Below, in pieces: positions 1 through 63,482 of a stretch of DNA of 64,000 nucleotides; the first letter of the stretch is position 1, and the number at the start of each line of letters is the position of its first letter. A model generated the notes under the pieces. It was not told the origin of the DNA, did not search any database, and was given only the letters and a program-made list of their open reading frames with translations. The translations under genes and the position numbers were made by a program. The DNA lies in the NCBI GenBank assembly GCA_051362555.1, contig CM120645.1, forward strand, positions 22,134,001 to 22,198,000, given 5' to 3'. The stretch is from Lingula anatina (lineage: Eukaryota; Animalia; Brachiopoda).

Positions 1-3000
1 CGCTTTTGTAACAACCCACCTCCAAAGTTAGGGGGGGCAAATTGTATTGGTCCCAACAGCAAGACAGTAATTTGCAACCTGAGGCCATGTCCTAGTAAGT
101 TATTTTTTATTCAGTTTTAAAAATCATGTTCACGATCGCCAGGATGTATATGTCAAAATATCACCAAAAAGTACTCAATACATGGTAACTCTTGTACAAC
201 AGTTTAGTTTGAAAATGACCATAAAATTCATAGGATAGTACGATTTTAGAGATTTTGGTTTCAATTTTTTGTTGATTGGTAATAGGTCTAGGATAAAAAC
301 TTGATTTTCATTAGAGTCATGTTTACTGTCTATATGTAAAAAGGAACCGAAGGTTTGAAAATGAAACATGGGGAAAGCCCATCTTCAATACTGGGTGTAA
401 TATTATCAAATTGCGTGAAGGCCTCTACCACTCCGCCAAGTCTAATCGAGGTCTGGCATTGCTAGGTAACTGGATTGTTTCTTACACCAGTTTCATGTCA
501 AAAGACAATAGGCCGCGTCGTGTACTACTGGGGCGTTTACAACACGGGTTGTCCACTGTATGCGACATAGATCCCATAGCTGTGAACGCTCATGCATCAA
601 GCGGACACTAATGTATTAACCGTCGATCATTCGCCTCTAAAATCATTCCCGTTTTAAAATATCTCCCCATGATATTTTCAAAAGATTTTGTAAAACCGTT
701 TGACTAATTACAAGACGTTTGCTTTCCTTCAGTACCTGTACGTAAGCGTTCAGACCACTGGTCGATTAACAATCGCTATGCATAAATTTATCTTGTGCTT
801 TGTTGGTGCCGTTGAAAGCGAAACATGAAGATGACCGGTGTGTAACGAAACTGAGTGTCCGCGCAGCAGAAAGTCCTAGAGGAACAGATCTATGATCCTG
901 TGGTGGTTGAAACAGCGTATATGTAGACCACTCCTACACAACTCTCAACACTCTCTCCGCTATATACAGCTGCTTTTAATTCTGCGAATTACTTCCGCCC
1001 ACAGTTCATATCTGGGGAGTTTGTAAGGCCAGAGCAGATGCTGAACCCCTTGGTTTTGAAGAAAAGCAGTGATTCTGCGAGCCCGATGTTGGGTTGCATT
1101 ATCGTCTTGGCACACAATGTTGTTCCTGAAGATGACTCTTACATAAGAAAGTATTGTTTGCTGTAGAATGTCTCTGCGGGAACCCTGGTTGAGATTGCCT
1201 TCTAGAAAAAACAACTGGCTCTGGCCCCCGGCATGAAATGCTCCCCATACAGAGACGCCACCACCCCCTGCTTGCACCCCAGGCAGTACACGATCATCGT
1301 TATATGCCTCTCGCACACGCTGGCGGCACGGATTCGACCGTCAACCCTAAAAACTGCATATCTGGTCTCATCGACGTAATTTCAGTGGTTTGGCTGTCAA
1401 AGGCACGTGGTCCCCAGCCCATTACAGACTTCGCTGTATATGACCTGCTGTTAACAGTGGCTTCCGTACTGGCCTTCGTGCAAAATAACCGGCTTGCAGT
1501 AACCTATTGTTCACGAGGGACCTTGAAAGGGGCGTTTGAATGACATTCTGCCACTCTCGTCTGAAAACATTGGTTGTCTTTGTACGACCAGCACGGCACA
1601 GTCTTAGGAGATGGCGATCCTGTCTTCTTCTTGTGATTCGTGGACACCCTGGTCGAGGTCTTGGAGTAGGTACGCCTGTTGCAGCATTTATTTGGAGGAC
1701 TTTACTTACGGTTCCCTGATAAATGTTGAATTGCCTGTCAATGGCTGCCCGTTTATGGCCACATTTTCTCTGAGAGCAGGAAACCCCTAGTAAAGGCCCC
1801 TTTACACTGGACGGCGTCCTTTCTGCGTCCAGCAGTACGGCCCCATTTGAGAGTTAAAAATTATAATACATTACGTGCCGACAACTGGCCGATCATTGAG
1901 CATTCATTCTGATACAAAATCAATGCTCGTGCCTCGTTAATAAGAACACAGCGATGGCAAATTTCATGGTCGCAGAAAGAACGCAGAAAGGACGCCGTCC
2001 AGTGTAAAGGGGGTATAAGATGCGTTGCTTAGCCGTCCAACCATATCTTTTCCTAGGCACTTGTCATGTTTCAGGGTGATTGATTTGTTGCTTCTTGAAA
2101 TATACTCCAAAGATTGACCAAAAACATGCGTTTTTATACAAGGGCAGAAATTCCCAAAAAGACCACCCTCACATTTCCGACCACAGAGAGTTATGAGGAA
2201 ATTAGGTAACACACCTGGCTACACATAGAGTGACACCTCAGTTTCGGATTTAAAATAGTGAGAGAGAAAATAAATATTTTGTAAAAAAAATTACTCGCCA
2301 AAAATATTCCATATTAAGTATTAACCCTGTAAGTCACTTTTAAACTTAATCATAGCAAATGCACATCTTATTGTTTATCCCATTCAATGAAAAATGGTTG
2401 TTCGTTGTAATAAAACAAACACAAGCTAAGTAACCGTTCCACTTCTTTCTATCAACAGCTGTCCTCGTGACCTCTGTTAAAATTTTTCTTGTCCATTTTT
2501 GTATGTTGTTCATCCATCCTTACCTCGGCCTGCCACGTTTTCCCTTTATCTGGACGCTTTGAAATGTTGGTGTGAACTTTTTTCCAGTCGCAGTTGATTG
2601 GCCAGAAAAATGTAAAGTATGTTTGACGTTTAAATTTTTGTGTTTTCGAAATTTTTGACTGTACGCTTCAGGCACTAGTTCATAAGCTTTTAAGGTCGCA
2701 GTCTTTACCCTGCCATAATCTGGGCTCTCAGCTACACTAAGCGCTGAGTAAACTTCGACCGCTTTGCCCCTGAGTACGCTTTGTGTCTAAAATTGACCAG
2801 AACCTCTTAAACGGCCATTTTCGAAATGTAGAAAATGTTTGTCCACACCTTTTTACTGAAATTTTGGTACCACTCTGATATTTTTGGCTGCAGCACATTC
2901 AGACCTGACAGGTAAAGTGACTGATCTTTCACTGTGCTCTTATTTGAGTTTTTCCAATTGAAAGTTCTCTTTCTAAGTGAAATGGTCTCTCTCGTTCTCT

Positions 3001-3721
3001 TTCTTCTCTTTCTAATTGCATCTCAATCTTCATTTTTTCTAATTGAATCTCATATTCTGACATTGTTCTTTCTGTTTTAACAGTTCCAACGTCTGGTGGT
3101 ACATCACCTGATGTAATTTTTTTCTAGAAACTCTCTTGTTTTCTATAACATCTAGCTTGACGTGTACACCTAAAGCAATCAACTCATCCTTTTTTATAGT
3201 GTCAAAACCTTCTACAGCCGACTTTTGAAGAAATTCTGTGACGAAAATACCATGTTTGATTTCTGCTGGCTTTAATATTTTCTAAAAATATTTCTTTAAA
3301 AAATAAACTTGTACTTAACTTGCAAATGTGCGCAAATTTAACTCTCCCGGAGGAGCCCCCAATTCTTATACGGATCAGAGTACCCCCTGACGCCAGCAAA
3401 AATCAATAACACAATTTCAAATGTAACACTTTATTTACTTAACAAAATCAACCAATTAAGTAAAATTTTACAAGGATTAACTTATCTCAAATTGTCCTTA
3501 TCTTGTTGCTTACCCTTAAAAATCTGGCACTCATATTGTAACAGATTTTCCAAGTGTATCCGATGGCGCTCCAACATGTACCAGTACACAGTAAATTAAA
3601 CAAAACAAATTAAGTCCTCAGAAAAATATGTGGCAGTTGGTAACAGTCCGATATCGAAGTCTCTCAAAGTCTCTGTCTATTAAAAGCCCCACTCTGTTAA
3701 CAGCCTCTCCCTCTCACTGTT

Positions 3722-3777
<56 letters not shown>

Positions 3778-6700
3778 TTTTTACAAATCTAGTACACTCT
3801 GGAGAACCCTCCATAGTGCATTTCCACACATGACTCGAAACCTATAGAAGGTACTTGTACCGTAGACTGTTAGTTCATAAATCATGCTAACACACATAGG
3901 TACTGACCTATTTAACCACTGACCTACTTAGCACGTAACTACAATAAGCACAACATTACCATTTCAGTTGACGGGGCTTGGGCAGACTGGGCCAGTTGGA
4001 CCCCATGTACAAGGACATGTGGTGGTGGTACCATGATGAGAAGTCGTACATGTACCAACCCGAGACCTCAACATGGAGGAAAATATTGTATCAGGGGCAA
4101 TGCATCAGAAAAATTTGATTGTAATCTGAATGCATGTTCGGGTGAGTGAGGAAGCAATCAACACCAAATGTTTATTTCACATGTTTCTTAGCAATTGTGA
4201 CACTGCTACAAAAGTAGTTCATTGAGCGGTTGCAAGCCTGGTGTAACGAACTTGTTACGTTTTTAACAAGTGCAACCATACATGATGATTAAGAAAATAT
4301 TTTTATTGTTAAATGGATGTACAAAGTAAAAAACATTTACCCATTTGCACACAGTTGACGGCGGCTGGTCTGACTGGGAGTCGTGGTCATCGTGTACGGT
4401 GTCCTGTGGAGGTGGGACCAGGATAAGACGTAGATCATGTACCAACCCCAAACCTGAACATGGAGGAAAGGATTGTCCTAGTAATGCCGGAACTCAATCA
4501 GAGATATGTAATGTAGAAGATTGTCCAAGTGAGTGAATTTGTTTTCAATTTTAAGATACAAACAGAGCGCCAATTTAATACGGTAATGTCACATATCTTC
4601 GAAATTACTGGCGAAGCATGTTTAACATGTCACGTTGGCATTAAGAATATATAAATTTGATATTTTGATCTGGAAAAGAAAAAATGATATAAGGAAAATT
4701 GATATAAAATATGAATATAGATAAATGTGGCGTTCTTTATAATTAAAAACCAAATCTTTGGTAATGATGCTTCATTGATTTTAAAATCACTGCACTTGTT
4801 TCAGCGTGCCAACTCCATGACGTCCCTGGTACTATTAGGTCCGTACCTGGTCCACTTCTGAAGGAGAACGAGTCTGTACGGTACTACTGCTTGCCGGAAT
4901 ATAAGCTTGTGGGAGGCAGCGAAATTCGAACATGTCAGCCAAACGGATTTTTGTCCAACGAAGAGCCCAAATGTACCAGTAAGTTTTGGTTCGCTTATTT
5001 AGTGTGTTTCGTCATAATGGTTTCTTACTGATTACATTGTGATGTGTGGTAGGCAAATGTGGTGTTAAAGCAACTGAAAGGGGCATAGGAAGTCCGTCGT
5101 ACGAACACTGTTCTTCGACACTTCAAAGAAAAAACAGGGCACATGCATATGTATCGATAGGGTCAATAAAATAACACACATTGTGATATTCGTCGTAAGT
5201 GACAGAGTGGAACTGAAGATAAGATCAATGTAGCGGTAGAACAGATTGATGAAACGCTTTAAAAAAGAAAGGGGCATCTGGTCCCAGGGTGGTCTCTTTT
5301 CTTTCCCGAAAGAAACTAGTTCACTCTGTAATCAGGTTAACACATTCAAAAATATATGTATGTCTTGTTTTCAGAATGTTGTGGAAAAGCGCGACATATT
5401 CCAAATGGTATCCCAGACGTCGACTCTGGTATTTGCTTTGGAGATGCTGTCACTTATCGGTGTGAAAAAGGCTATACGTCATCCAATGACACTCCCATTA
5501 TTTGCAAGTCCCCATACGAATGGCGCTACATGGAATTACCTAAGTGTAAAGGTGATTAAGAATATTGTTAGTCTTTGCCAAAACTTTTTTATTTACTGTC
5601 ATACTTGCATTCTTTTGGATATCAGATAAATATTCACGATCAATCACTAAATTACTAAACATTTAGACACGTCACGGCGGCGGATCCAGGAATATTTGAA
5701 AGGGGGGTGGGGGTCCAGAACGACAAGTCACGGATGCCAGCCAACCATCGCCCCTTGGCGTGGGGTTTGGGGCCTGTTCAACGGCCCCGAAAATTATTTT
5801 TGGTGTTTTGGAGGTCAAACGGTGCCCTTTGGTACGGTTTAGAACTATGATTTAGCCAGTCAAAATTCCGATTTAAAAAATATGATATATTTTTCATAAA
5901 GTACCCCCCTGACGCCCTCTAAATCCGCCACTGCGTCATCTTACGAGTGACGTCATAATCGTGATCAACAACATAACAAAATAGTTCAAGCAAAGTGACG
6001 GTACGAAATTGTAGCCCATAAAATTTTGGTCAACTATGCTAATTTTCTTGATAGAATTTTGTGCAAGGATGAAGTTACGCCCCGTACCGATTGCTATCGC
6101 ACATCAAAACAGAAAGGCGTTAAATTGACGATTGAAGATTTTGGCACAATAGCCCTTTACTCCCTGTCGACATTTCCGCGGTCAATGGTGGTCTGAAACT
6201 ATTTTTCAATCATTTCTCTGTCAAGGACAGTAAAGAATTATCTGACATTTTTTTGTAAAAGAAAATACATGGGTGCTTTTTTGACACCCAACGTTTTTTT
6301 TTTTTTTTTTTAATCTGTATGTACAGGTACCTTTCTTTTATCTCTTGTCATGTTAAATCCCCAATTTCTGATGCATAGTTTTGAAAACTACTACAGGGGC
6401 GTAACCAGACCTTTAAAAATTGTACGCACAGATTTTTAAAATTCCCAGCAAAATGTAGACTAACGCAAGAGATAAGGGCAGCGTAATTACAGCATATGTC
6501 ATTTAGTTAGAAATATTCTCGCAATTAAAAAAGTTTCAATATTCTTATTACCCAGAACGGTATATTTATTTAAAAGGAGGCTAGCTTCGCATATGTGGAA
6601 CCCCCTTCGAATAATCCTGGATCCACCTCTGAGTTGAACTAACATACGGTTTCATTCACCTTACATGTGGATGCATGGCTCCCAAAAACAACGACACGAC

Positions 6701-9700
6701 AGAGCTCTGATACATCTAAGTTTAATTATTTGTTTGTAAAAATTGCCCATGTCACCCTGTTAGTTTGGAGGGGTAAGCTGGGTCAAGTCCGTGTCAAAAT
6801 TCTTTGAAGCTTGATTCTGAGGAAAAATTCTTCCTTTGTTTCTCTAGCTCCTTCTTAAACCTGGCGTCCAGGTTTTATCTAGCTGCTCTTTGAAAATAAC
6901 ACTCAGGCAGATTTTTACCTGAGATAAATAACGCCAGATATTCTTAAGAAAGAGGGTACAGAAGAGTTGCGGGCCACTGAACCCTCCAATTAAGAGGTAA
7001 AGGAAGTTTCAGTTAAATGGACGATTAAGATAGGACTTGTTAAGGTTACAGGCATTGTTTACCTCATTTTGCAAGACCGGGGGGGGGGGGGCCGAACAAT
7101 TGTGCCTATACAATTGATACAGAGGATTTGTACATACAGGTGACTTTAATAAGCAGAGGATTTTCTTTTATATTCCGTGAAAAATACACTAAATTTATAT
7201 GATATAATATCATGGTTGGCCAAAAAATTGTACGCACAGTGCATCCGTGCGTATGCCTAGTTACGCCCATGTACTAACGTACATATCAAAAACAGCACAA
7301 TTGGTGGACAAATACAATAATGATTTTCTTACATGCTACTAAAAGCAAAGATTCCTTTACCTTGTTCTGTTTTTGAGTCTGACAAAACTTACCGTTAAAG
7401 TTAAAAAGTAAACCAAGGTAACTGAACTGATTCACCCTTTGTAGCTCAACACCGTTATATTTCCATGTTTCATCAGCCCTTAGCTTACACCCACTTCCAA
7501 ACACCATTGTTTTTGTTTTTACTGTATTTACTGTTAACGTTTCACTTTCACTTTTTTCTCACTGTTTATTTAATTTCTACACCTTTATTACCCTTCTAAT
7601 ACATATATCATGAGTTACAAATGTTAAATAGTATTCAACCTTGTTCAGTTTGAGAAAATCCAAGATGAATTAACAAAGCACACGTGTTCAAAAATGGCCG
7701 TCATACAGACACACCTGCCCATTAAATATTTAAGTTTGTTTCTCAGTGCTTTCCAAATTTGGGGTTTTTGAAAAATCCATATATTAAACTACTGCAAGGG
7801 TTACACTTTGGTCATTTTCAAAAAAATATTGCTTCTAAGTGGGTTTTCAGACCTTATTATCCATAAAGTATATATTTGGTGATTAATCCAAGATGGTTCT
7901 CATTGCCATCGATGTATAACTACTGTCGGGGAGATAGTGTCACTTATAAGATGAAATAATATTTAGTTTGTTTCTCAGACCTTCATCTCCCCTATGATAT
8001 TTGTGAGTATTCTGTTGGTTATCTTGATAAGTGTATGGGTATCTTGAAAATCCAAGACGGGCATCATTTCCCAAAGATTAATAGCTACATGTAGTGCATG
8101 TAATGCCAGTTAAATGTAAGCCATGCTGCTCAAAAATAGTTACTGTCCAATAAATTTTACTGTCTAATTACGTAAAACGGTAACGGGGGTCAAAACGATG
8201 CATCCACTGTGAAAAAATCATCCTAGACAGGGGCGGATCCAGGATTATTTGAAGGGAGGAGTCCGAGGATGCAAAGCCGACCACCGACTCCCAGGTGGAG
8301 TGGGACTAGGGCCCGCTGAAGGGAATTTTAGAGGGTGAAAGGTGCCATTTGGTACAGTTTCGTAGGCCTGCTATAAATCAGCTATTCAAAATTTTAATTC
8401 CAAGGGGGGGGGGGGGGCATTAGTGTGATTTGTTTTCAGAAATCGAAGAGGGGTTAGAACCCCCATTGACCCCCTCCCCCTCTAAACCTGCCACTGCTAG
8501 ATTACCGACGATACCCTGTAACCAAGGGTTGGCAACCTGACTATAACCACGTAGTAATAAAACATTTGATAGGTTTATGACATCACATATAAAATGTTGA
8601 TGATCGAGGTGCACACATTTCAAACGCTGTGAATGTCAGTCGATTTCAATATTTTATGTACATGTAGTTTTATGTCCATTTTCAGCGGATGGAAACTGTA
8701 ACTCCAGTGCCATTGCTGGACCATCAGGTGGTTATAAAGCATGCTCCGGAAGCGACACCGATAAAGTATGCTATATGCATTGTTCCAATGGCCTTACATA
8801 CACGACAGAACACAGTATATTTGAATGTGGGGCTAAGACAGGCTGGGAGTGGAAGGTTCCTATGAGAGGAGGAACCAATCATCTGCGAAGTACTGTAGGA
8901 GCATGCGACCGTAAGTTCTCCCAACAGAACCCCAAGTCTAAGAATCATGGGCATACCTATAGGGCATTCCCGATCATCAGGAGGTGTTTATTTAAAAATG
9001 ATGTTTCAACATTTAAGTCGCACCCTGTGGCAACTACGTCAACTTGTGATGACACATGGTAATAATTTCAGTTTATTTATTTAGATTATCTGATGTTATC
9101 ATAATTAGGTGTTTTTCGTCCATTCAAAGGTTGCATAGGTGCTGGTTTCTCCTTTATATACAAAATCATATGGCGCATTTCTGTTTCAGTATCTGACTTT
9201 CCAGCGGGTTGTTCAATATCCCTTGAAGGATGCGATTTAGCAATCCAAACCCCTGAATTGACCGAAGCTATAAAAGAGGAAATAAAGAGCGAAATGATGA
9301 AAGAGTTGGCAGCTCTGAATGTATGCTCAGATCCTTGTCAGGTGAGAAAAAAATGACAAATAAGTGAATTCTTTTTCATGTGGTTAGATTGATGTTTAAA
9401 TAGTTATGATACTGTTTTTTCACCGCCAAGTGGAATACAATTGATTAATAGAAAACACAATGCACGTGTTTAATTGCACGCACATCTTATTACATTTAGA
9501 TCATAGACATTGAAATAGAAACCATCGAAGCCAATGGATATAGACGAGCAGTGCTGCAAGAGAAGCTACTACGCATGAAGATCATTTTATACGCAGCTCC
9601 TCCCAAAGGGTCCGTCACCACCCAGCAATCTGCGAGGATGGAACTGTCTAAAGCCATGAAGATATTGAAGTAAGTGGCAGCGTACGCAGTCGTCAATATG

Positions 9701-13667: not shown

Positions 13668-14331
13668 CTGGAAAGACTTACATCGAGTAAAAATAAATCT
13701 GAAAGACCTACATGTATCACAGTTAACCTGTGAGTGGAACTGCCCATTATATATAAACGCATGCTGTGAAATGGATACAGATGTGAAACAGATGTAAAGA
13801 CTTGATTGTCACTTTACTTTCTATAGATCCTGGGATAATTGGTAAAATTATATGTAACTGAATATGATTGCGCAATGATTTATCAAGTACATCATATTAA
13901 TCCCATATATGATAATTGAACTGTTAGACTATTATAGGAATCTTTTATGCTGAAAGCAGTATCCTCGTGCTTCTGTCATGAAATTGAAAAGGTTGGCAAT
14001 TTATATAGCTCCGAATTGCAGTAATTAAAGGAACACTGGTAGTAGTACATTATTATTATATTTAATGTTCAGATGAATCTGATCAGGCCAATGTGTTTAA
14101 AACTGATTTTGTGATTAATTACATGACTGCATGCCTATACTGCTTATTCATGCTGTATGTAAATCTTCCAAACTTCAGTTTAGTGGCGATAAAAATTGAA
14201 ATTCTAGATTTTGCAAGGGGGGGGGGGGGTATTGTTCTCAGTCGACCTGAAGAACATTCCTCTCTGTATATTATTAATGATTCAGAAAAAAGAGATGATC
14301 GACATACGATAAATGTACGAGGGCATTTTTC

Positions 14332-23112: not shown

Positions 23113-23165
<53 letters not shown>

Positions 23166-36213: not shown

Positions 36214-36327
36214 ATGGGGAGAATTTTGCCGTTCGCTTTGTTAGGATTCCTTTACCTTGGTCTCTTGATTGGAAGTACTCCGACGAAACAACGGTTGGTG
36301 AGATGTAGGTTAACACTATTAACTGCC

Positions 36328-36360
<33 letters not shown>

Positions 36361-48331: not shown

Positions 48332-48392
<61 letters not shown>

Positions 48393-48533
48393 AAAAGAAA
48401 AAGAAGAACAGCAACTTTCTTTAATGTTTTTGACCCCCTGAAGAAAGAAAGAAACCGGTCGGGGCAAGAAAGTTGCTGTTCTTCTTTTTCTTTTATTATA
48501 TATAATATTACTCGTACAGGAAAAACGTTTTCA

Positions 48534-48622
<89 letters not shown>

Positions 48623-51600: not shown

Positions 51601-54600
51601 ACAATACCTTCGCATGTGGGTAACTTTGTATTTGCCCAGGTGTGTGCCATGGTGCACATTACTGGAGAGTTGTTAGAAATCTTATATCCCCGGTCACAGA
51701 TATAACTGACTGTATCACCATAACAGAGTCCATCTTCTGTATCAGGATGCCCATTAAGAATGAAGCGAGCTTTTCCACAGCATTCTGGAATCGTAAATAT
51801 CAAAAACGTAGTCTTGCCTTAATTTGATTGCCTGTATTGATTAATTGCGACTTTATTGTACTCCGATGTCATACCCCTAAGACTACACAAAAACGAAAAG
51901 TAAATCCATGATAACCATTCGTACGCCATTTGGCCAGATATAGATATAGATATATACGTACTCTGACAAACTGGTTCCTCTCCCGTCAGCGTCCCGTTCG
52001 CCAGACATGTTCTTGTCAAACTGCCGCTGATTAACGTGTGTTCTGGTTTACAGAAGTACCGCACTTGATCGTTTTCTTTTAATGTATTGGTAGATAATAA
52101 TGATATTGTGGACCCCGAGACGGCGTGGACCTGGCACGCTGAAAGTGTGACTAATCAGAGTAAAGAGGGTGGCATATATCAAATAATATACACTGTACTC
52201 CAATAAGATATTTTAATAACAGTTGAGTCATTTTGACGTTAATACAGCTACTAAAACAGGTGCGTCATCATAGCACGTGTTAACATGGCAGAAACGGTAT
52301 AGCATTTACAAATACATTTTGCTCCATTTACTGAAACTTGATCAAAGTTATGTTTTACTTACTCGGGCAATGTCCCAAAGCGCACTGCTCCGACTCAGAT
52401 CCGGCATTAATAGGACAAGCCTTTCCTCCATGTTCAGGTTTGGGGTTGGTACATGATCTACGTCTTATCCTGGTCCCACCTCCACAGGACACCGTACACG
52501 ATGACCACGACCCCCAGGCCGCCCAACCACCGTCGACTGAAATGATGATGGCCAATTTTCAGGACAAACAATTAACATGTGCAGATTTCAAATTACCTGT
52601 TTGTAATCCGAGACTAATAATGAAATAACGCTTAGGTGTCGACATTTTTTTCCACATTACAAAATGGGGCAAAAAAACATTTACGTTGATAACACTCTAC
52701 CTGTTACTAAGTCCAAGTATTCCGTATATTTTGTGTTTTGGATGAAAGCCGGCAACCGTGCATAAAACAAAGATTGATTGGAATACGCACATTTAACATG
52801 CAATTTTTTGTTGAGTTTGTTTCTTTCTTTACCTGGACAATATTCACGGTTGCAAATGTTGGTTTGAATATTCTTTCCTTGGCAGTTCTTTCCGCCATTA
52901 CTTGGAGGTGGACTATTACACGCCCTGTGTCTTGTGCTGTTGCCTTGACCACAGGTTTTACTGCAAGCTGACCAATGTGTCCAGACACTCCAGACTGCGT
53001 CAACTAAAGGGACATTGTATATTATAATTATCGATCTTATGTTGCTTCTAGATATGTTTCTGAAAACTCAAATTGGAAGTAGAGCATAATTCTGTAATGT
53101 ACTAGCATAAAAACATTTTCAGGTCTGAACTAAGTACTTTATGTCCATTAGTCCATGTTTTTGTTTTATGTGCTTTATATTACGTTTGCAATTTCACATA
53201 AACCTTGTCAGTCCAGAGGACCTGCGATATCAAAAACCTTACAGGTCTTCTAACATTTCAAGTGCTCATGAACTGCCGGGCAAGTAGTACCCCTTTGTAT
53301 GTAGTTTTGATAATATTTTAACAACCCAAGGTTTAATCTTATTTTCTCAACCAATCAATAAATGCTGGTCGGTGTACCATTTTTCGAATGTGGACTTGTT
53401 AATTCAATACCTGGACAAGGTCCGTCATTGCACGACTTTGTCTTAGTACTAGAACCAGAGCAGCCATTGCTGCCGTATTGTGCAGATGGGTGGCCACATT
53501 GTCTTGTTCTTGTCTGGCTTCCTTGGCCGCAAGGAGCACTGCAGCTTGACCAGTCACTCCACGTGCCCCATGAAACATGTGATGATGTATGGCCTTTGAA
53601 AATACCAAAATTTAGACATTAACAATAATATGACTGTTACTGGTTGAAAGACGGTTAATTCCTCTACAATATACACAATATACTACAATATAACACAGTA
53701 GAAAACGACTGACAAGGATCATAACAATAGCTTTATAATATTCTTTCTTTTACGTATAAATGATACTTTCTGAAGCGACCATCTACCCCATGTAGAATTG
53801 AAAAACCTAAGCAGACTATTAAGGTAATTAAGTGTGTGTCCACGAGAAAACCAACCCAAATGTAGAAAATGCGGCAAGGTGGGGGTGAACGGATTTACAT
53901 CATATTTGGTGTGTTTGAACCTTTATATGAACAATATCTGAGGCTGCAATATTTCCTGAAAAAAATCCCTACTTACAGAGATATGGCCAGTGACAATTTG
54001 GGGGTATAATCAACCAAAAATTCTTCTGAAAAACAGGGTTATATTGATTGGCCTTAAAGTTTATACAGGTGTCACTGAGTGACTTAGTTTGGTGATATAT
54101 TATAACCTAAAGATAGGGGATTAAAATGATATACACTTTTTTCACTCTCTTTGTTTCCATGGTAACAAACCAAGCGTTTTTCTCCGGCCTACAAACCACA
54201 TGCTTTTAACACCCCCCTTCTATTTTTGACAATATCTTCATCTTCACAGGTCTTTGGGGTAAAGCTTGTTCAGGACTAACAGATAACTCATTAATCTATT
54301 TATACATGAAATCAAAACTTACTGCTGTTCTACAACTTGTCCGTTGTAACAGATAGAACATGACCTAATTTCTTCATTTTTCGTCAATCTATCCGGACAT
54401 GTATATCGGTGCAGTCAACTTCAGCTATCTCTTTCAAGTCAACAAATGGTTTAAAACACTGTTAGTTGAACTTTTTTATTTTCATTTTACCTATTTATAT
54501 TTTTTTCTGGTTAAAACAAGCATCTAACACATTTTAAAATCATGTGAAACTAATGTACTAACGTCAGAACAACACAACGTCATTATCCAACATGGCGGAA

Positions 54601-57600
54601 ATAGCAGACTGTTTCTTTGCACATCTTTCTCAACGAAGTCGTGTATCATGTGGTTTATACTCTGTGTACAGATATAAAAAAGCATGTAGTGTATTGAAAA
54701 ATTGCAACAGAGATATTAACAGTCATCTTCGTCGCGTTTACGTGGAGCAAAACAGCGTGAGTTACGAAAGCAAACTGATTCTTGTCAGGTGTGGATTATT
54801 TTGTCTCCGATGATCGCAATTGGACATTTCCAAGTATCTTTGGGAGAATGAATGGGTTACACCATGTGACCAGCACTGGGATATGGGCTTGGTTTGTGCT
54901 GGAAACCATCCACACAGGGAAAAACGAGCCTATAACGAAATATGTCATGGGATTAACTTGCAGATGTCAGTGTAGACAAAAAGCCATTTGAATATACTGG
55001 TGCCACTTGGTTCAGGTAAGAAACCGGTGTGTTTGTATTTTAATACAGACTAAAAGCCAGAAAAAAAAAGTTCACTCAGAAAAATGATCTAGGTGTAATT
55101 GTACCACCAGCGTTAGCGCTGGCGGTACACATGGTTTCGGTCCCGTCCGGATCGTTCCGCCGGCTCCGCCGGCTCCGTTGGCTCCGCCGGCTCCGCCGGC
55201 TCCGCCGGACGGCTACCGTTACCGCTTCTCCTCCTAGACGGTAAGGGCCCCCGTACCCATCTCATGGATTTAGGTCACCTATAATCTCAACTCGTTCCAC
55301 GTAAAATTTGGGCTTTGTCGGTATTGGGGTCTGGGTGTGGCACTCATTGCAATGCACCCTTGTCTAAAAATGGCAAAATTAAATGCTAATTATCTACCCT
55401 ACGGAAGGAGTTATGGGAAAAATTTCTATAGACGGCTTTCCAAAAGTCATATGTGTAGATTTCAAATATACCCTTGGATTTGACCTTTGACCTTTACTTC
55501 AAGGTCAAATGGGCCAAAATTTTCAAAAAAATTAAATTTTTTACGAAAAAAAATTTTTTTGCCCTGTTATTCAGACACCACACAGACTTAACCAATAATA
55601 TTATTGGAAGGTGTTACCCTTCAGGTCATCTTTCATCTCCATGAATTTGGGGTCAATCGGTGCATTTTCACGGGAGTAGCGGCCATAAGATACCGAAACT
55701 GAAAACTGTCTCTAATTCGGGAACCGTTAATGCTAGAGACCCATTCTTTTTTGCATTTTGTAGAGCATGTAAAGCCCAACACTGGAGGTGGTCTCGGTTT
55801 TTTTGTATTCCATACGGTTTTCGAGTTACGCTGTATCAAAAAGTACATATTGGTGGTAAAAGCAAAATGTGCAGTACGGTAATGGATAATAAATTTTGAA
55901 CTCTGGAAAAATAAAACATAAGGCTTGGCAAAGCAGACAACTTGTGTTCAAAAATGACATTATTTCATCAAATTTGAACTTCTGAAACTTCAGAGCACCT
56001 CCTATTTCAAGAATTTTGACCAAAATGACATTTTCTTTATTTTAATTAATTTTTTCTGTACGAAATTTAAGGCACATTATGGTAACTCCAAAATTATAAC
56101 ATTTAGTCCCTTATATCTCCAAAACTGGCAGAGATAGGTCCATAGTTACTATTGAAGTTGAATAGGAAGTCATATACTGGCAATCTTACTATGACCTTGA
56201 AAGTGACCTTTGACCTACTTTTCACCATGAACTGAACTTTGCAAATTTTTCTTCCCTTTTATCTCTAAAACTGGCAGAGATAGGTCCATAGTTACTATTG
56301 AAGTTGAATAGGAAGTCATATACTGGCAATCTTACTATGACCTTGAAAGTGACCTTTGACCTACTTTTCACCATGAACTGAACTTTGCAAATTTTTCTTC
56401 CCTTTTATCTCCAAAACTGGCAGAGATAGGTCCATAGTTACTATTGAAGTTGAATAGGAAGTCATATACTGGCAATCTTACTATGACCTTGAAAGTGACC
56501 TTTGACCTACTTTTCACCATGAACTGAACTTTGCAAATTTTTCTTCCCTTTTATCTCCAAAACTGGCAGAGATAGGTCCATAGTTACTATTGAACTTGAA
56601 TAGGAAGTCATATACTGGCAATCTAAATGTGACCTTAAAATTGACCTTTGACCTACTTTTCACCATAAACTGAACTTTGCAAAATTTGCTTCCCTTTTAT
56701 CTCCAAAACTGGCAGAGATAGGTCCATAGTTACTATTGAACTTGAATAGGAAGTCATATACTGGCAATCTAAATGTGACCTTAAAATTGACCTTTGACCT
56801 ACTTTACACCATGAACTGAATTTTGCAAATTTTGCTTTCCTTTTATCTCCAAAACTGGCTGAGATAGGTCCGTAGTTACTATTGAACTTGAATAGGAAGT
56901 CATATACTGGCAATCTAAATGTGACCTCAAAATTGACCTTTGACCTACTTTTCACCATAAACTGAACTTTGCAAATTTTGCTTCCCTTTTATCTCCAAAA
57001 CTGGCAGAGATAGGTCCATAGTTACTATTGAACTTGAATAGGAAGTCATATACTGGCAATCTAAATGTGACCTTGAAATTGACCTTTGACCTACTTTTCA
57101 CCATGAACTGAATTTTGCAAATTTTGCTTCCCTTTTATCTCCAAAACTGGCTGAGATAGGTCCATAGTTACTATTGAACTTGAATAGGAAGTCATATACT
57201 GGCAATCTAAATGTGACCTTGAAATTGACCTTTGACCTACTTTTCACCATGAACTGAACTTTGCAAATTTTGCTTTCCTTTTATCTCCAAAACTGGCAGA
57301 GATAGGTCCATAGTTACTATTGAACTTGAAAAGGAAGTCATATACTGGCAATCTTAACGTGACCTTAAAATTGACCTTTGACCTACTTTTTATCATGAAC
57401 TGAACTCTGCTAATTTCTTTCTCTTTTAACTTCAAACTTGACAGAGATAGGTCCATAGTTACTCTTGAACTTGAATAGGAAGTCATATACTGGCAATTTA
57501 CTGTGACCTTGAAATTGACCCTTGACCTACCTTACGAAGAACTTAAATTTGATTGTACCATATATATTTTTTGCAATAGTTTAAAAATTCTTGTTGATTG

Positions 57601-60600
57601 CATTTTTACAGCTTGTCAAGCACAAAACTGGTGGCTATGTCCCTTATTTTGTGTATGTGGGGGTCTATACGAATGCGCTTGCTCCAGCTGGTGGTACAAT
57701 ATTCGGAGGCGGTATCGCCTCTCTGATCCTCTAGTTTTTTAATGGTAAACGGTCCATTTTTAAAAAAGAAAAATGCCCCCTTTCAAATAATGAAATTGCA
57801 GCCTAAGGACCTGTGATAATTTTCTTTTAAGCTATCTTTGTGTGGGTATTTATGTAGGTTTAATGTATTTGGGTAAAATAAATTTAAGGGTAACAATTGG
57901 AATTATATTGAAGCTATGGCTGGTCTTGGCAAAATTGCTAGGCTCCTCATAATTAATATTCGAAACCATGCCTTACTTATAAAACATGGACAAATGGGAT
58001 AATAATTTATTTTTCATCAATGTATCAATTAACTTTCAGATAAGTGTTTGTATGTGTCTATATTAAGCTATATTTATATTTCAGGCATATTTGAGAAGTG
58101 TTATTTGACACACAGTGATCTTATGGTCAGCAAGAGTCCAAAGCCTTGCAGAAACTGAAACTAGTGTGGAAATGACGGCTGTTGTAGAAAGGCATATGTG
58201 TAAATGAAAGCCACAATATAACAAATGCCGAGGAGATGCATGAGGCCCTAGTTTCTGCAGTTGGAGCCATTTTCTACATCCAGCTAGACAGACATCTTCC
58301 AAACCTGCGTGGACTGGAGTGTCCAATTACAACAGTTTAACTTTCTTGATTCCTACAACATGAGAAAAGGTGTCTCCCTTCCTTGAGCAGTTTTAACATG
58401 AGTGATACTGATGTTAAAGTTAATTTGGATTTTTCTGAGGCAAATGTGCCAACTGGAACCATACCAAGCAAGATCACAAACAAGGAAATTTTTCTTGTCC
58501 AGAGAAGTCTTCTCTGAAATCTTTTGCTACCAAGACTGAAGAGTAATTGTAAGGTCCTTTTTTTAGACCACAGTTATGAAATGTGCCAAAAAAACAGCTT
58601 TTGATCAAATTAAAGTCTAGTGGGCCAACAATCTGACTAAAGAAAAACTTAAAGCACATCAGCTGTGAGAGAACTCCACCCTCTTGAATATCTCACTGAG
58701 TTACACAATGGATGAGCTTTAAAGTCATCTAAACCTTTGAAACTATATTCAAATAAAGTAAAGGAGTTTTACTGAATGAGTTTAGAAGGGCACAAGAAAC
58801 AGGCCAGCAGAACCTAGCATTTGTGAGCATGAAGATGAGATTGAAATGTCAGTAAGGAGGGTTACAGACTAATCAGGAAGAAAAATGTATTAAAAACTTT
58901 GATGTTATGAGCTGTAATGTTTGATATAAAACTGCAAAGATGTTTCATAACACCAGGATATATTTTGCAGTTGTGTTAGTTTTGCTTTTTGAATAGAAAA
59001 TTATCTTGTTTTGCTACATTATGATATAGTTTGTAATGATCACAACTAATGTTGCACTGCTTTGCATGTATTGCTGTATAACAATTTTGTGATTTTTTTA
59101 TTATTTGTAATTATTCATCTGAGACAACAATAAACTAAATTGAATAATTTTTTAGTTACTGTATGCTCATAAATAGTCACCAAAAAGTGGTGTGGATGAT
59201 TAAAAAAACCTTTTGATAATTAAAAAAGATTTGTTCTGGCTTTGCTCTCATAAATACTATGGCATATCCTGATCTCTATATGATAAATATTGCACCAAAA
59301 AGAAATCGCTACAAAACTAAGATTTTAATTTGTATTCACCAAATTGATGATATTAAAAATATATATATATATTAAAATTATCATGTAAACTCTCAAGTTA
59401 ATTGCCAGTGCCTATCCAAAGTAACAGAATCTAAGATTTATTTCCTCTAAACTTTTTGTCCATACAAATTAAAAAGTCCATATATGGCAATTTACAAATA
59501 TGAAGCCCAGTGACCTTGACCTATGACCCACTGACCTGATAATCATTAGTACACATCCACTTTCCATGCTCACCAGCCCTATTGATTTAGTAACATTATT
59601 GTAGAGCAAAATGGTTTAATATATTAATCAAACCCATTGTCTACATAGACTTGGAATGAATCCACCATGATTTTTTGCCTTAAAAATGGCCAACTTTGGG
59701 GGTATTTTTCAGTACCTGTTTTTATACAGCAGTAACTTTTGAAACTTGATTTGGAGTGATCCATATCTGCCTAAAATATTCATGCAGTTTTATAGCTGTA
59801 AACCCTGTGAAGATGGAGATATATGCAATTAAAGATGGTAGTATCAAAATTGGACTTTGGGGGGAGGGGTGTTATAAATGGGTGTGGCTCGCCCAAGCAG
59901 GGTCTTATCTGAATTCTACATATATCTGTGGCAAGCCAAATGATTGTTTTTAATGTTTGTAAGGTCTAATATTTTTTAGTTTTCTCCATTTTTGTTTAAT
60001 TTACACAAAATATATCATTATTTTTCCAAGGTAAAAATGGAGTCTCAAAGAGGCTACATAAGCCATGACTTATAATAGGCTATAATTCTCTGAAGAAAGG
60101 ATATTTTTGGGATTCCTTCCTAACTCATGAATAACTTCCTAATATGCCTCCATACAACAAATTTGGTTGAAATCCGCTGACCCCCACCTTGCCACCCTGG
60201 GCTGGTTCTCTCGTGGACGAGCTCTTAACACATTCAATGAACAAAAACTGTCGCTGTGTACCTTTACCGTCACATTTTTCCTTGCACGGTTCTGTTTCAG
60301 AATTTTCTCCAGGACAATCCTTTCCTCCAAAACGTGTCGGGGGCTTGTTGCACTCTCTGTGTCTTGTTTTATTTCCACTGCACGAAGTACAATTAGACCA
60401 ACTACCCCATTCTCCCCATTGCCCATCGACTGAAAAAAAATAATAAACACGATGCACATCTCATATGTAGGGGAACGGGTTTGTAATTGTCAGTTATTTA
60501 AGCACAAAATGGATTCGTCAGAAATGTAACTACATATATTCCATGGTCACCAGCCCTTTTACTTCTCATCTGACATCAAATATGTTTTGACTCTATGGGT

Positions 60601-61832
60601 TATCCAAATAACACTACAGTTTTTCCATACCTCCTTTGTATTCGCAAATATAAGGTATCTCTTGGTTACATTTGACGTCAATCATCCCGTACACCCATCT
60701 GCTGGTCGTTGTCGAAGTTATGCGGGAACGACCAGTTTGTGTATATCTATATGTGGTTGTGACCTTATTACGCTGCCGGTATGCCATACATTTCTGGGTG
60801 TAAGTTACACCAGATTCCCAGATAAATGGGTTAACAGTTTTATTTGTACTTCTCCAAGTCCAATGATATTGCTCCTCTTGACGGCCATTTACCCAAAGTG
60901 TAATTTCGCGCACCCCTGAAAATAGTAGTTTGTTGGTAAATCAAGTTTTATATAATAATAAACTATTTAGATCCGCCACTCATCTTGGTTTACCTTCATC
61001 CTATAGCGAGTTGGAATAAAAATGATTAAGCCAGGAATAGTTCACGGGTGTACACGTACCAATACTAATACAAAATACAGGTGGTCATATCCAAATTTTC
61101 AAAGCAAAAACATACCCTTGAAGCTTGTAACCCAAAGTGATTTCCACAGAGGTAAAAAAAAGTACATATAAAACTGAAAAAACAAGGTCAAATCTACCCG
61201 AAATTAGGATCAGAATGTTCACCTTAAAGCAATTCAATTTTTATCGCTCATTTTGATACCTTACCATGTGCCTCCAGATACAATCTAAGGGAATTAAATT
61301 TTTCCATAGTATCAAAAGCTCCAAGGTCACAGTTGTCATTTCCACACGTCTTTTTCCCATCGCTCCATGATTTCTTGTTTATAGTAGGGAGATTGAGACA
61401 CATTCCAGCGACGAGTTGATAGTTTGCTTTATTGCAATCATTGTCACCTGGAATAAAGTGTACATTATACGGAATAATATGGTTGCCAGTGAAAGCAATG
61501 ATACATTTAGATAAACATACATATACGTTAACAGGGGCGAATCCAGGATTATTTGAAGGGGGGAGCGGAACGCCAGGCCCCGGATGCGACACCGACCATA
61601 GCCCACCTCGGTGTGGGGCTCGAGCCCTGCTAAACGGCCCAAAAAATTTGGTGTTTTGGAGAGCAAACAGTGCCCTTTGGTAGGGTTTAGAACAATGATT
61701 TAGCTTGCCAAATTCTTATTTCAAAAGGGGAATATTGATGTGATGCATTTTTCAGAAACCGAACTGACCCCGCCCTCAAAATCCGCCATTGCATTTAGAC
61801 ATGTATATATGCACTGCAATATCGATGGACTG

Positions 61833-61880
<48 letters not shown>

Positions 61881-63482
61881 TACCAGTTTTAACCAACGGT
61901 CATTGGGCACTTCTTACAATCTTATTACCTAAACAAACTCCCCATTTGCGATCTGTGTCATAGTTAGGAGATGTAGCACACCAGGGTTTGTCATGTCCAT
62001 CGCTGGTGCAAGCTGTGTATAATCTTCCTTTATATCTAAAAGGTACGACACAAGGAGCACCATCGCTGGTCCCACCAGTTGTCTTAGCAACAGAACCTAA
62101 AAAACAGGATAAGCTTGAACATGAGGTGGCTCATCTTCCGAAAACTTGCATCGACAAAGTTGCTAAACTTCAATGAAAATATTAGTTTCCCTCTCCAAAT
62201 GGAATTACTACTTCATAAAAATGTATTTCACTTGACATACCTGGCGTTAAAAATGCATACTGTACACGCAGTCAACATCTACTTTTCATGTAACACACGT
62301 ATAATATATATATCTTAGGATTTGCAATACAATTTCATGCACATTTATGTAAATAAAAGTTCCGTTTTAATTTCCCTTTTTCCCCCAAACAAATTTTACC
62401 TAGACAAATCCCCCACTGTCCGTCCTTGTCATAACTATCTGTTGTTGCACACCAAGGATGATGATAGTTGTCTGTAATACAGGTAGTTTTACTGTTTCCC
62501 CGGTACGTGAATGGAAACTGACACACCTTGCCATTGGCATTCCCACCAAATGTTTTGATCTTATCTGGAACATATCCAAACAAACAAAGTACATCAAGAA
62601 CAAAAACGTTTACAAACAGCCTACTACTAAAGTTGTAGAGGCAAAATCATGAGACCCAGGGAAAGGTGGTGGAAAGGTGTCAATTATATCATGTGGAAAT
62701 TTCAAAACTGTGGCTCTTTGGCCACCATGGCCAACCACCTCCATGTGACGATATGGAAGCACGCGTACAAAATATCAGAAACTTCTTCCAGTCCATTACT
62801 TCTCAGCTAGACCCCCTCAGATGAGATAGACTTTCTTGCTGTTGGCATTCTTTCACAGTAATAACTCACAGTTAAACAGGAGGAAAGATCTTCTTTTAAC
62901 GTAAGTAAGTTTTCAGGCTCTGATAACATACCAAATTCGATACTTTAAGACTTTACTGAAATTCTCGGTGCTCTGATATGTGCAATCTGGAACAATGCTG
63001 TCAAAGAAAGTTACCAACAATTTGGAATTGTGGCAATGTAGTGCCACTACCCAAATGTAAAACAGCAGTGGAGGACAGTTTACCAGTGTAGAAAATGACT
63101 TAAGGACTGTATCCCTAACAATTAACCTAAGCAAGGAGTTGGAAGCATTCATTTTCACATGGCTGTGGAATATATTAGGCCCACATATTAAGTAAGACCA
63201 GTTTGGCAACATAACACAAAATCATCTGAATAATCATCTTCTTATAACCGTACATACCCATTTTTATTTCACAAATAAAAGGATTTTTCTCGGTACAACT
63301 CGCGTCATTGAGTCCTCCTTCACCCTTTTGTATGAATTGCATGCATCCTTCTGGTCCTCTGTGGTCATTTGGTTCGCCAGGAAGCCAAAGATTTCGGTCC
63401 ACTGTTCCACCCGTGCTGTTCCAATACCAACTTCCCGTCTCAGGGCGGAGTTCGAATGCATCTACCCAGAAATTGCCGAATC
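46895..63482 (-). CDS. Gene C (5'-partial, >1200 aa): CTL(EPN) - 2 fibronectin type II - CTL - 4 TSP1 - 2 CCP - Sushi-like - unassigned region - GCC2/GCC3 - EGF - 2 cbEGF - CTL
   Basis: 21 exons on the minus strand: 63482-63258, 62564-62400, 62096-61929, 61447-61265, 60915-60631, 60429-60268, 53593-53411, 53003-52833, 52536-52363, 52138-51962, 51784-51608, 51361-51137, 51007-50856, 50639-50470, 49939-49785, 49543-49382, 49064-48960, 48809-48699, 48096-47983, 47709-47515, 47094-46895. Phases are compatible throughout. Linking the 60-63 kb head exons to the 47-53 kb body is inferred from strand, phase 1-1 and the absence of a stop or start between them. Confidence 0.85.
47909..47989 (-). repeat. 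3 x 27-bp tandem repeat spanning a splice donor of gene C
   Basis: Units 47989-47963, 47962-47936 and 47935-47909, each C(A/G)TTGTG|GTAGGTGT..TGG(T/C)GG. Confidence 0.85.
48337..48605 (+). mobile_element. Penelope-like relic: 31-bp inverted repeat around a degenerate minimal hammerhead motif, between (TA)n tracts
   Basis: IR 48391-48421 / 48466-48496. The loop contains cccc-CTGAAGA-aagaaa-GAAA-ccgg-TC-gggg. Confidence 0.55.
55098..57737 (+). mobile_element. Helentron-associated non-autonomous element (HINE/DINE-1-like) nested in the Sola3-like element
   Basis: Subterminal IR attgtaccaccagc (55098-55111), partial IR gctggcggtaca, (gctccgccg)n microsatellite, central tandem array, 3' IR gctggtggtacaat (57687-57700), hairpin gaggcg-gtat-cgcctc, end ctag plus T-run. 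Confidence 0.8.
56114..57530 (+). repeat. Tandem array, ~9.7 copies of a 146-bp unit
   Basis: atctccaaaactggcagagataggtccatag recurs at 56115, 56261, 56407, 56553, 56699, 56845, 56991, 57137, 57283 and (degenerate) 57429. Confidence 0.95.
61532..61791. mobile_element. MITE (family of 5675-5933 and 8228-8496)
   Basis: caggggcgaatccaggattatttgaaggg ... aaatccgccattg. TSD not preserved. Confidence 0.7.
61929..62564 (-). CDS. Two fibronectin type II domain exons of gene C
   Basis: [38 protein letters not shown] (62564-62400) and [47 protein letters not shown] (62096-61929) match the FN2 consensus C-x-FPF-x-Y..C..WC-x-T-x-x-YD-x-D-x-x-WG-x-C. Confidence 0.9.
62610..63235 (+). mobile_element. Degenerate LINE reverse-transcriptase fragment (CR1/L2 group)
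   Basis: [64 protein letters not shown], matching RT motifs K-x-x-GPD, W-K-x-x-x-VVPLPK, LRPISLT and QFGF. Confidence 0.75.

What the first reader, a model, noticed from the sequence alone, without database searches (positions are those of the whole stretch)
1..63482. Clustered family of secreted 'variable head / constant chassis' lectin-complement-like proteins
Seen: three paralogs share a nearly exon-for-exon C-terminal chassis (TSP1-CCP-CCP-Sushi-like-unassigned-[GCC]-EGF-cbEGF-cbEGF-CTL, with near-identical exon sizes such as 177/170/155/111/114 nt) but carry different heads. B has one CTL and one TSP1; C has CTL, 2 FN2, CTL and 4 TSP1; A has at least 3 TSP1. There is no TM segment or protease domain. 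Known: CTL+FN2 is the mannose-receptor combination, TSP1+CCP occurs in complement C6/C7, and CCP-linker-GCC-EGF is the SVEP1/polydom core. I know of no named family with this full architecture. Inference: a lineage-specific, diversifying family of soluble pattern-recognition/opsonin or matrix (mucus, adhesive, shell) proteins built by swapping recognition heads on a fixed stalk.
Basis: partly seen in the sequence, partly recalled or inferred. Interest (0 to 1): 0.85.

Follow-up and report, generated by a model that had tools for sequence, protein, structure and literature searches.

The report
Brachiopod two-ended lectin gene cluster
Three intact neighbouring genes, likely from a Lingula brachiopod, share one multi-domain stalk and are predicted to encode secreted proteins whose variable front-end lectin would bind sugars, likely on microbes, and whose predicted SEA domain would let the protein be nicked into two halves; none was seen expressed in the RNA runs tested.

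Summary
The window has three paralogs (A +, B -, C -): 50 open exons, 47 of 47 introns GT-AG, a shared chassis 52-57% identical and under purifying selection. All close relatives found are Lingula anatina RefSeq proteins (four genes), auto-named SCUBE or hemicentin but lacking their defining domains. The ground plan is signal peptide-CTL-TSP1(n)-CCPx3-SEA-GCC-EGFx3-CTL. The 'unassigned' block is predicted to be a SEA domain with a conserved dibasic pair in the loop that other SEA proteins cleave; the CCP-SEA-GCC block is weakly homologous to the SCUBE spacer. 'Swapped heads' is overstated: every full relative starts with a CTL. What varies is its sugar motif (EPN or QPD), the TSP1 count (1-4; a 92-bp gene-conversion tract links A and C) and, in C only, an added FN2-FN2-CTL module. 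C's 6.7-kb head-to-chassis gap is one TTAA-flanked transposon in a 277-nt intron, so the head likely belongs to the gene. No splicing was seen in 8 RNA runs of unknown tissue. Best guess: secreted glycan-recognition (agglutinin/opsonin-like) proteins; matrix or adhesive roles remain close rivals. New architecture from known parts; function untested.

The parts
1..13667 (+). Gene A (5'-truncated by window): TSP1 x>=3, CCP x3, SEA-like, GCC, EGF x3, CTL; chassis 85% identical to L. anatina XP_013412332 (P0006)
1..4528 (+). A TSP1 exons: 1-94 (partial), 3968-4141, 4355-4528
4380..4471 (+). 92-bp tract identical to 52511-52420 in gene C's last TSP1 exon (likely gene conversion)
4805..8910 (+). A CCP1 4805-4978, CCP2 5375-5551, CCP3 ('Sushi-like') 8686-8910
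   Evidence: Pfam Sushi for CCP1 and CCP2; CCP fold for the third
9190..9985 (+). A SEA-like domain, exons 9190-9341, 9500-9669 (dibasic loop), 9831-9985
10475..13667 (+). A GCC 10475-10636; EGF 10918-11022; cbEGF 11198-11308, 12200-12313; tail CTL 13096-13293, 13456-13667 (stop)
19044..25604 (-). Gene B, complete, 14 exons, 808 aa: signal peptide, CTL (QPD), TSP1, CCP x3, SEA-like, EGF x3, CTL; chassis 93% identical to XP_023933541 (P0001)
25010..25604 (-). B signal peptide and head CTL, exons 25604-25358 and 25222-25010
21181..21195 (-). Remnant of B's GCC exon (acceptor plus four matching codons); skipping it keeps the frame
   Evidence: P0001 keeps the domain
46895..63482 (-). Gene C (5'-truncated by window), 21 exons: CTL (EPN), FN2 x2, atypical CTL, TSP1 x4, CCP x3, SEA-like, GCC, EGF x3, CTL; no close counterpart found
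60268..63482 (-). C head: CTL1 second exon 63482-63258; FN2 62564-62400, 62096-61929; CTL2 61447-61265, 60915-60631 (about 23-residue Thr/Arg-rich insertion, no EPN/QPD); TSP1a 60429-60268
53832..60224 (.). 6393-bp element with degenerate terminal inverted repeats and TTAA on both sides, filling the intron between C's TSP1a and TSP1b (remnant intron 277 nt)
   Evidence: reads from related copies
52363..53593 (-). C TSP1b 53593-53411, TSP1c 53003-52833, TSP1d 52536-52363
46895..52138 (-). C chassis: CCP 52138-51962, 51784-51608, 51361-51137; SEA-like 51007-50856, 50639-50470, 49939-49785; GCC 49543-49382; EGF 49064-48960, 48809-48699, 48096-47983; tail CTL 47709-47515, 47094-46895

Best explanation
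These are three intact paralogs of a likely Lingula-restricted gene family, predicted to encode secreted two-ended lectin-like proteins whose front C-type lectin would bind surface sugars, likely of microbes, while the conserved stalk and rear lectin-like domain would tether the catch to host cells or mucus. Shown: the exons, the domains, purifying selection, the absence of a TM segment, a signal peptide in B and two RefSeq relatives, EPN versus QPD motifs in the head CTLs and neither in the tail CTLs, TSP1 copy-number turnover, and a 92-bp identical tract between A and C. Predicted: the linker is a SEA domain and its conserved RR/KR pair lies in the beta2-beta3 loop. Inferred: a proprotein convertase nicks that loop, leaving two halves held non-covalently that could part under force or ligand binding; the heads differ in sugar preference (mannose/GlcNAc-type EPN versus galactose-type QPD), and C adds collagen/gelatin binding through FN2; expression is limited to a tissue, stage or challenge not sampled here. 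The family grows by gene duplication and by gain, loss and conversion of phase 1-1 exons in the front third.
For: Open exons and splice sites. A-C dN 0.31, dS 2.13, ratio 0.14 over 702 codons; dS saturated for A-B and B-C with pN about 0.3. Four L. anatina relatives carry the same chassis. EPN is in the head CTL of C, P0005, P0006 and P0009, QPD in B, and neither motif in 7 of 7 tail CTLs (the meaning of the motifs is established knowledge, recalled). Head CTLs are more divergent than tail CTLs in 8 of 10 pairs. The linker model matches SEA or SEA-like domains: SorCS2 Z 8.4, rmsd 2.7, 99 aligned; mucin-16-like SEA Z 8.2, rmsd 3.3, 121 aligned; TMPRSS6 7.5; Gpr126 6.5. A dibasic pair sits at the aligned loop position in 7 of 7 proteins, between predicted strands 125-135 and 148-157. 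PMC6954182 (passages) places furin and autoproteolytic cleavage of SEA domains in this loop, with the halves staying associated. Conversion tract: synonymous differences 6 of 42 codons against 180 of 351 in the other A-C exons, p=3e-6; next-longest identical tract among 1225 exon pairs is 27 bp. No Lectin_C in the shell-proteome domain table.
Against: There are no functional data. Reads from 8 RNA runs gave zero or near-zero depth on the exons (tissue unknown, 6-26% of each run read), so splicing, and C's head-to-chassis join in particular, is not shown. The dibasic sites lack the P4 arginine of the furin consensus, and there is no GSVVV autoproteolysis motif. The SEA call rests on a model of mean pLDDT 57 and Z near 8, which the tool marks as borderline. 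The family is small (about five lineages seen) and old (dS saturated), unlike fast-expanding immune families. B's QPD site has a non-canonical beta4 motif, and C's second CTL has no sugar motif. CCP-SEA-GCC-EGF cores elsewhere (SCUBE, SVEP1) serve matrix and signalling roles, not immunity.
Confidence: 0.4

Rival explanations
1. Structural or adhesive cross-linkers of a stage- or tissue-specific extracellular layer (mucus, pedicle or burrow adhesive, egg coat, basement membrane). The two CTL-type ends and the TSP1/FN2 modules would bridge glycans and collagen.
For: SVEP1/SCUBE-type core with cbEGF, TSP1 and FN2, all typical matrix modules; 7-12 N-glycosylation sequons per protein; old paralogs under purifying selection; silence in 8 RNA runs fits a restricted tissue or stage.
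Against: EPN/QPD switching and the more divergent head CTL fit recognition of varied ligands. Not in the shell proteome domain list, which covers only the shell.
Confidence: 0.32
2. SCUBE/SVEP1-like modulators of growth-factor or morphogen signalling that bind the cell surface through the spacer and GCC region and use lectin ends in place of CUB.
For: The CCP3-SEA-GCC block aligns to crayfish SCUBE1 451-712 (E 3e-9; 61 bits; without GCC 14.6 bits against a best shuffle of 3.7). SCUBE spacers tether to the membrane and carry furin sites (PMC10214685, passages).
Against: No CUB domain, no nine-EGF N-terminus, one GCC instead of three, and B has lost GCC altogether. L. anatina has a separately listed SCUB1 gene.
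Confidence: 0.1
3. The copies are silent or decaying, and some exons (C's head) belong to a separate gene.
For: No exon coverage in 8 RNA runs; B's GCC exon is destroyed; large transposons sit in introns of A and C; no full-length C-type protein was found; a hydrophobic ATG-ORF lies just upstream of C's TSP1b exon.
Against: 50 open exons, 47 of 47 canonical introns, dN far below dS. B's GCC loss keeps the frame. Removing the transposon leaves a 277-nt intron, within the 129-693 nt range of C's other 19 introns, with little room for a gene end and a promoter. Three such hydrophobic ORFs occur in that intron, and using this one would need a 47-nt intron.
Confidence: 0.12
4. Shell-matrix (biomineralisation) proteins.
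For: TSP1, EGF, Sushi, GCC and SEA domains occur among L. anatina shell proteins; one Atlas structural row matches the head CTL to perlucin-like proteins (under the tool's bar for naming).
Against: Supplementary Table 27 of PMC4595640 lists no Lectin_C or FN2 domain among shell proteins, and its two 'hemicentin' entries are TSP_1-only proteins.
Confidence: 0.06

Closest known systems
L. anatina RefSeq models XP_013412332, XP_023933541, XP_013410227/8, XP_013410204 (auto-named SCUBE3-like, uncharacterized, SCUBE2-like, hemicentin-1)
   Same: Same chassis, 39-93% identical to the window genes; three of the four have CTL-TSP1 heads.
   Different: They are unstudied gene models with misleading names. 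None has C's FN2-FN2-CTL module, and the B-type model keeps GCC.
SCUBE family
   Same: Secreted; homologous CCP-like + spacer + GCC block with a basic loop; cbEGF repeats.
   Different: No CUB; EGFs lie after the spacer, not nine before it; one GCC or none; CTLs at both ends plus TSP1.
SVEP1/polydom
   Same: Secreted; CCP, SEA, ephrin-receptor-like and EGF modules and a furin site are reported (PMC13722417, passages).
   Different: No vWA, HYR, pentraxin or long CCP tail; about 800-1200 aa against 3571. No direct sequence comparison with SVEP1 was made here.
Mannose receptor family
   Same: FN2 next to CTL domains with an EPN motif (gene C only).
   Different: Two FN2 between two CTLs, no CTL array, no TM or tail; other members lack FN2 (family definition recalled).
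Complement C6/C7 and properdin
   Same: TSP1 next to CCP; properdin and thrombospondin-1 are the top solved-structure sequence hits through TSP1.
   Different: No MACPF, LDLa or FIM; the likeness is at single-domain level only.
SEA-cleaved proteins (GPR126, MUC1, Notch2)
   Same: Predicted SEA fold with a basic pair in the beta2-beta3 loop.
   Different: Those are membrane proteins with a full furin or GSVVV motif; these are soluble and have only a dibasic pair.

Membership tests
SCUBE | Nine N-terminal EGF repeats | tested here: not met
   B and full-length P0005/P0006 have CTL-TSP1-CCP there; definition from PMC10214685 abstract and passages
SCUBE | C-terminal CUB domain | tested here: not met
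   All end in a CTL followed by the stop
SCUBE | Spacer followed by three cysteine-rich (GCC) repeats | tested here: not met
   The spacer is weakly homologous, but there is one GCC, or none in B
SVEP1/polydom | vWA, HYR, pentraxin and long CCP array | tested here: not met
   No such Pfam hit in P0001, P0003, P0006 or P0009 or the window exons; the N-termini of A and C are outside the window
Hemicentin | vWA, long Ig array, G2F and fibulin-type end (recalled) | tested here: not met
   P0009, named hemicentin-1, has only CTL, TSP1, Sushi, GCC and EGF hits
Mannose receptor family | Transmembrane segment and CTL array | tested here: not met
   Maximum 19-residue hydropathy 0.81 in C; three CTLs split between the two ends
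Mannose receptor family | N-terminal ricin-type cysteine-rich domain | not testable with these tools
   C's start lies beyond base 64000 and no genome is held
Complement C6/C7 | MACPF domain | tested here: not met
   No MACPF hit; TSP1 and CCP exons are adjacent, with no unmodelled family-like exon
Ca-dependent C-type lectin CRD | EPN/QPD and beta4 ND motif in the head CTL | tested here: met
   C CTL1, P0005 and P0006 have EPN, the following Glu and xND; B has QPD with xHD (partial); P0009 has EPN in a truncated model
Ca-dependent C-type lectin CRD | Same motifs in the tail CTL and in C's second CTL | tested here: not met
   Absent in 7 of 7 tails and in C CTL2
Ca-dependent C-type lectin CRD | Measured sugar binding | not testable with these tools
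   Needs a glycan array
SEA domain | Ferredoxin-like beta-alpha-beta-beta-alpha-beta fold | tested here: inconclusive
   The predicted element order fits and SEA domains fill the top rows (Z 6.4-8.4), but mean pLDDT is 57, other ferredoxin folds score about 6, and Pfam SEA gives no hit
Cleaved SEA domain | GSVVV or R-X-(K/R)-R motif in the beta2-beta3 loop | tested here: not met
   Only an RR or KR pair, in 7 of 7; this fits other convertases (recalled), and cleavage is untested

The most novel reading that the evidence does not exclude
A brachiopod-specific system of secreted 'break-away' recognition proteins: a convertase-nicked SEA joint lets a variable lectin/TSP1/FN2 front half, reshuffled between paralogs by exon gain, loss and gene conversion, detach from a constant rear half that stays anchored. 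That would be the shedding logic of mucins, Notch and adhesion GPCRs rebuilt in a soluble opsonin, without a membrane anchor.
Probability: 0.13. Interest if true: 0.78.

Novelty: new variant of a known kind. Interest (0 to 1): 0.45.

Why it matters
It defines an apparently undescribed, mis-annotated brachiopod protein family and gives a compact example of how invertebrates build new secreted proteins from phase 1-1 exons around an old CCP-SEA-GCC cassette shared with SCUBE. It makes testable predictions: differing sugar preference of the paralogs, a nick at a defined loop, and a SEA fold for the SCUBE-type spacer, for which a 2023 review (PMC10214685) reports no published structure. Lineage-specific mosaic lectins are common in invertebrates, so without function it is of moderate interest.

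Tried and rejected
No whole genome is held, so the 5' ends of A and C and the family size in this assembly could not be checked. One search listed no RNA holder, only nine raw-read runs by species label. A search with C's CCP3 exon alone found nothing among 11 candidates although relatives exist, which shows the word-based search misses members; 'Lingula-restricted' is therefore only a lower-sensitivity result. The full-library phmmer gave 3 hits: two Lingula proteins and one bacterial RcpC protein (P0002) rejected as spurious. P0008 matched through GCC only and was dropped. Single-sequence folding of P0005 failed (mean pLDDT 34) and was not used for fold search. Foldseek on the linker model gave no match at E<=0.001; thyroglobulin was top at E 0.004, a lead only. 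ESM Atlas feature scores were all under 0.9. An SRCR-like look of an ORF at 54814-54972 had no Pfam support. My pattern control for B's GCC remnant was too strict and did not recover the remnant itself, so that call rests on position, phase and four matching codons. Ten paper searches, seven of them aimed at this architecture or at Lingula lectins, listed no paper whose title or abstract start describes it; most listed papers were seen only as listings. Gerdol et al. 2018 on Lingula immunity is not held and could describe these genes. Three look-ups of earlier scan findings returned nothing. No complex prediction was run.
Full report
Observation. Six-frame scans and self-comparison show three paralogous exon series. 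Models built by coordinates give gene A (+, 15 exons, 1-13667), gene B (-, 14 exons, 25604-19044, complete, 808 aa) and gene C (-, 21 exons, 63482-46895, 1218 aa inside the window). All 47 introns are GT-AG, nearly all domain exons are phase 1-1, and no model has an internal stop. The sizes 177/170/155/111/114 nt are exact in all three genes. Pfam on 33 exon-level ORFs confirms TSP_1, Sushi, Ephrin_rec_like, EGF_CA, Lectin_C and fn2. No TM-like stretch exists in 7 of 7 family proteins. Chassis identity among A, B and C is 52-57%. dN is 0.31-0.40; dS is 2.13 for A-C (ratio 0.14) and saturated for the other two pairs. These are old, constrained paralogs, not chance matches.

Source and relatives. 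A full-library profile-free search with a C fragment and two word-based searches returned four Lingula anatina RefSeq genes with the same chassis: XP_023933541 (93% to B), XP_013412332 (85% to A), XP_013410204 (58-61% to all three) and XP_013410227/8 (about 41%). The window is therefore most likely from a lingulid brachiopod. In the tree, B groups with XP_023933541 (100/99) and A with XP_013412332 (100/100); C has no partner. Their automatic names (SCUBE2, SCUBE3, hemicentin-1) are wrong by domain content. The only informative non-Lingula hit was crayfish SCUBE1 (E 3e-9). The searches are of limited sensitivity: one query missed known members. Restriction to Lingula is therefore likely, not proven.

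Ground plan and what varies. The three relatives with an N-terminal region begin with a CTL followed by TSP1; two of them have a signal peptide, as does B. The ground plan is signal-CTL-TSP1(n)-CCPx3-linker-GCC-EGFx3-CTL, so A's head is probably CTL-TSP1x3 or more, with the CTL outside the window. Variation is of four kinds. (1) Sugar motif: EPN in C's first CTL and three relatives, QPD in B, none in any tail CTL. (2) TSP1 number 1, 3 or 4, with turnover: the last TSP1 of XP_013412332 is 75% identical to A's second-last, while A's last is 79% identical to C's last. Those two exons share a 92-bp identical tract (4380-4471 / 52511-52420); the next longest among 1225 exon pairs is 27 bp, and synonymous differences are 6 of 42 against 180 of 351 elsewhere (p=3e-6). 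Gene conversion between the inverted paralogs is the simplest reading. (3) An FN2-FN2-atypical CTL module in C only. (4) Loss of GCC in B, in frame, while the L. anatina B-type model keeps it. Head CTLs are less conserved than tail CTLs in 8 of 10 pairs (27-46% against 37-50%), with the caveat that three head sequences are partial. This is exon gain, loss and conversion around a fixed plan more than wholesale head swapping.

Is C's head part of the gene? The 6674-nt gap between its first and second TSP1 exons holds one 6393-bp element with degenerate terminal inverted repeats and TTAA on both sides, with a second element nested inside. Removing it leaves a 277-nt intron, within the 129-693 nt range of C's other introns. 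Phases match, and the head exons end in donors, not stops. I put the join at about 80%. It is not shown by reads.

Expression. Eight of nine raw RNA runs listed by species label were laid (about 85 million records; 6-26% of each run; tissue unknown). Depth was zero over all bins from 17089 to 25092 (nearly all of B), at most 0.12 over A's exon bins 9085-9751 and 10419-13753, zero over most C exon bins and at most 0.64 in one strand column over its TSP1 bins. Coverage fell on repeats and on one spliced minus-strand RNA at 15-17 kb. No exon junction of A, B or C was among the joints shown. There was no single-copy protein-coding positive control. This leaves splicing unverified; it fits restricted or inducible expression and does not exclude silence.

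The unassigned block. A model from a 12-row alignment (mean pLDDT 57) shows a beta-rich first domain, then beta-alpha-beta-beta-alpha-beta. Against 48,161 representative chains, the first domain matches CCP modules (MASP-2 Z 6.9, rmsd 2.1, 64 aligned; E-selectin 6.8). The second matches SEA or SEA-like domains (SorCS2 8.4; mucin-16-like SEA 8.2, rmsd 3.3, 121 aligned; Trop2 7.7; TMPRSS6 7.5; Gpr126 6.5; MUC16 6.4-6.5). These scores are borderline, but the top rows agree. An RR or KR pair lies in the predicted beta2-beta3 loop in 7 of 7 proteins. PMC6954182 (passages) states that MUC1, Notch2 and human GPR126 are cut in that loop and stay associated until force separates them. The Lingula sites lack the furin P4 arginine, so cleavage is a prediction. 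The CCP3-SEA-GCC block aligns to the crayfish SCUBE1 spacer and first cysteine-rich repeat (61 bits; 14.6 bits without GCC against a best shuffle of 3.7 in 200; hhalign probability 77%). PMC10214685 (abstract and passages) describes that spacer as a membrane tether with furin sites and no published structure. PMC13722417 (passages) labels a SEA module and a furin site in SVEP1.

How it likely works. Shown: secreted-type architecture, conserved stalk, variable front. Inferred: the head CTL binds glycans through Ca2+, with EPN and QPD paralogs preferring different sugars; TSP1 and FN2 add reach and protein or collagen binding; the non-canonical tail CTL and the EGF/GCC half bind a host surface or partner; the SEA loop is nicked during secretion. 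I favour an agglutinin/opsonin-like role (0.40) over a matrix or adhesive role (0.32), signalling modulation (0.10), decay or mis-joined models (0.12) and shell matrix (0.06). The shell option is weak because Supplementary Table 27 of PMC4595640 lists no Lectin_C (I saw main-text passages, supplement search hits and part 9 of 24).

Comparison and novelty. The proteins fail the defining tests for SCUBE, SVEP1, hemicentin, mannose receptor and C6/C7; they work at most 'like' these at module level. The paper searches listed nothing that names this architecture; PMC9835746 and PMC10140915 were read as passages only and do not describe it in those passages. Gerdol et al. 2018, the main survey of Lingula immune genes, could not be read, so earlier description is not excluded. 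Verdict: a real, apparently undescribed lineage-restricted mosaic family built from known domains, a new variant of a known kind.

Noticed in passing
window 36214-45885 (+): A DNase I-like gene between B and C: signal-peptide-like first exon near 36214, a catalytic-region exon near 44692-45006 (weak Exo_endo_phos hit, E 0.02) and a last exon ending near 45885.
   Followed up: partly
window 53832-60224: TTAA-flanked 6.4-kb terminal-inverted-repeat element (Kolobok- or piggyBac-like by target site; label recalled). Reads show a GT-AG joint 55010>58080 on the + strand that skips the nested element.
   Followed up: partly
window 55098-57700: Nested element with perfect 14-bp terminal inverted repeats and an internal array of 9.8 x 146 bp; reads reach depths above 1000, mostly one strand in three of four runs, probably from many copies.
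   Followed up: no
window 15100-17100 (-): Spliced RNA between genes A and B (joints 16044-16684, 16044-16312, 16373-16683) seen in up to four runs, with no long ORF noticed: a long non-coding RNA or a transcribed repeat.
   Followed up: no
window 963-2334 and 41254-42384; 32699-33358: Decayed Tc1/mariner transposase copies (HTH_Tnp_Tc3_2, DDE_3); the first two are 78% alike.
   Followed up: partly
window 26948-27512 and 46417-46912: About 560-bp repeat, 78% alike, upstream of B and directly behind C's stop codon.
   Followed up: no
window 34140-34758 (+): Short ORF with a THAP-like cysteine pattern (by eye, no Pfam hit) followed by a coiled-coil ORF; possibly another transposon remnant.
   Followed up: no
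window 44108-44662 (-): ORF resembling the C-terminal end of a LINE reverse transcriptase inside the DNase gene (by eye; no Pfam hit).
   Followed up: no
P0003 / P0005 (XP_013410228 / XP_013410227): The two RefSeq isoforms differ by 40 residues of the head CTL that include the EPN site; if real, alternative splicing would switch sugar binding off.
   Followed up: no
window 47913-47990: 27-bp tandem repeat at the donor of C's second cbEGF exon that duplicates the exon end in frame.
   Followed up: no
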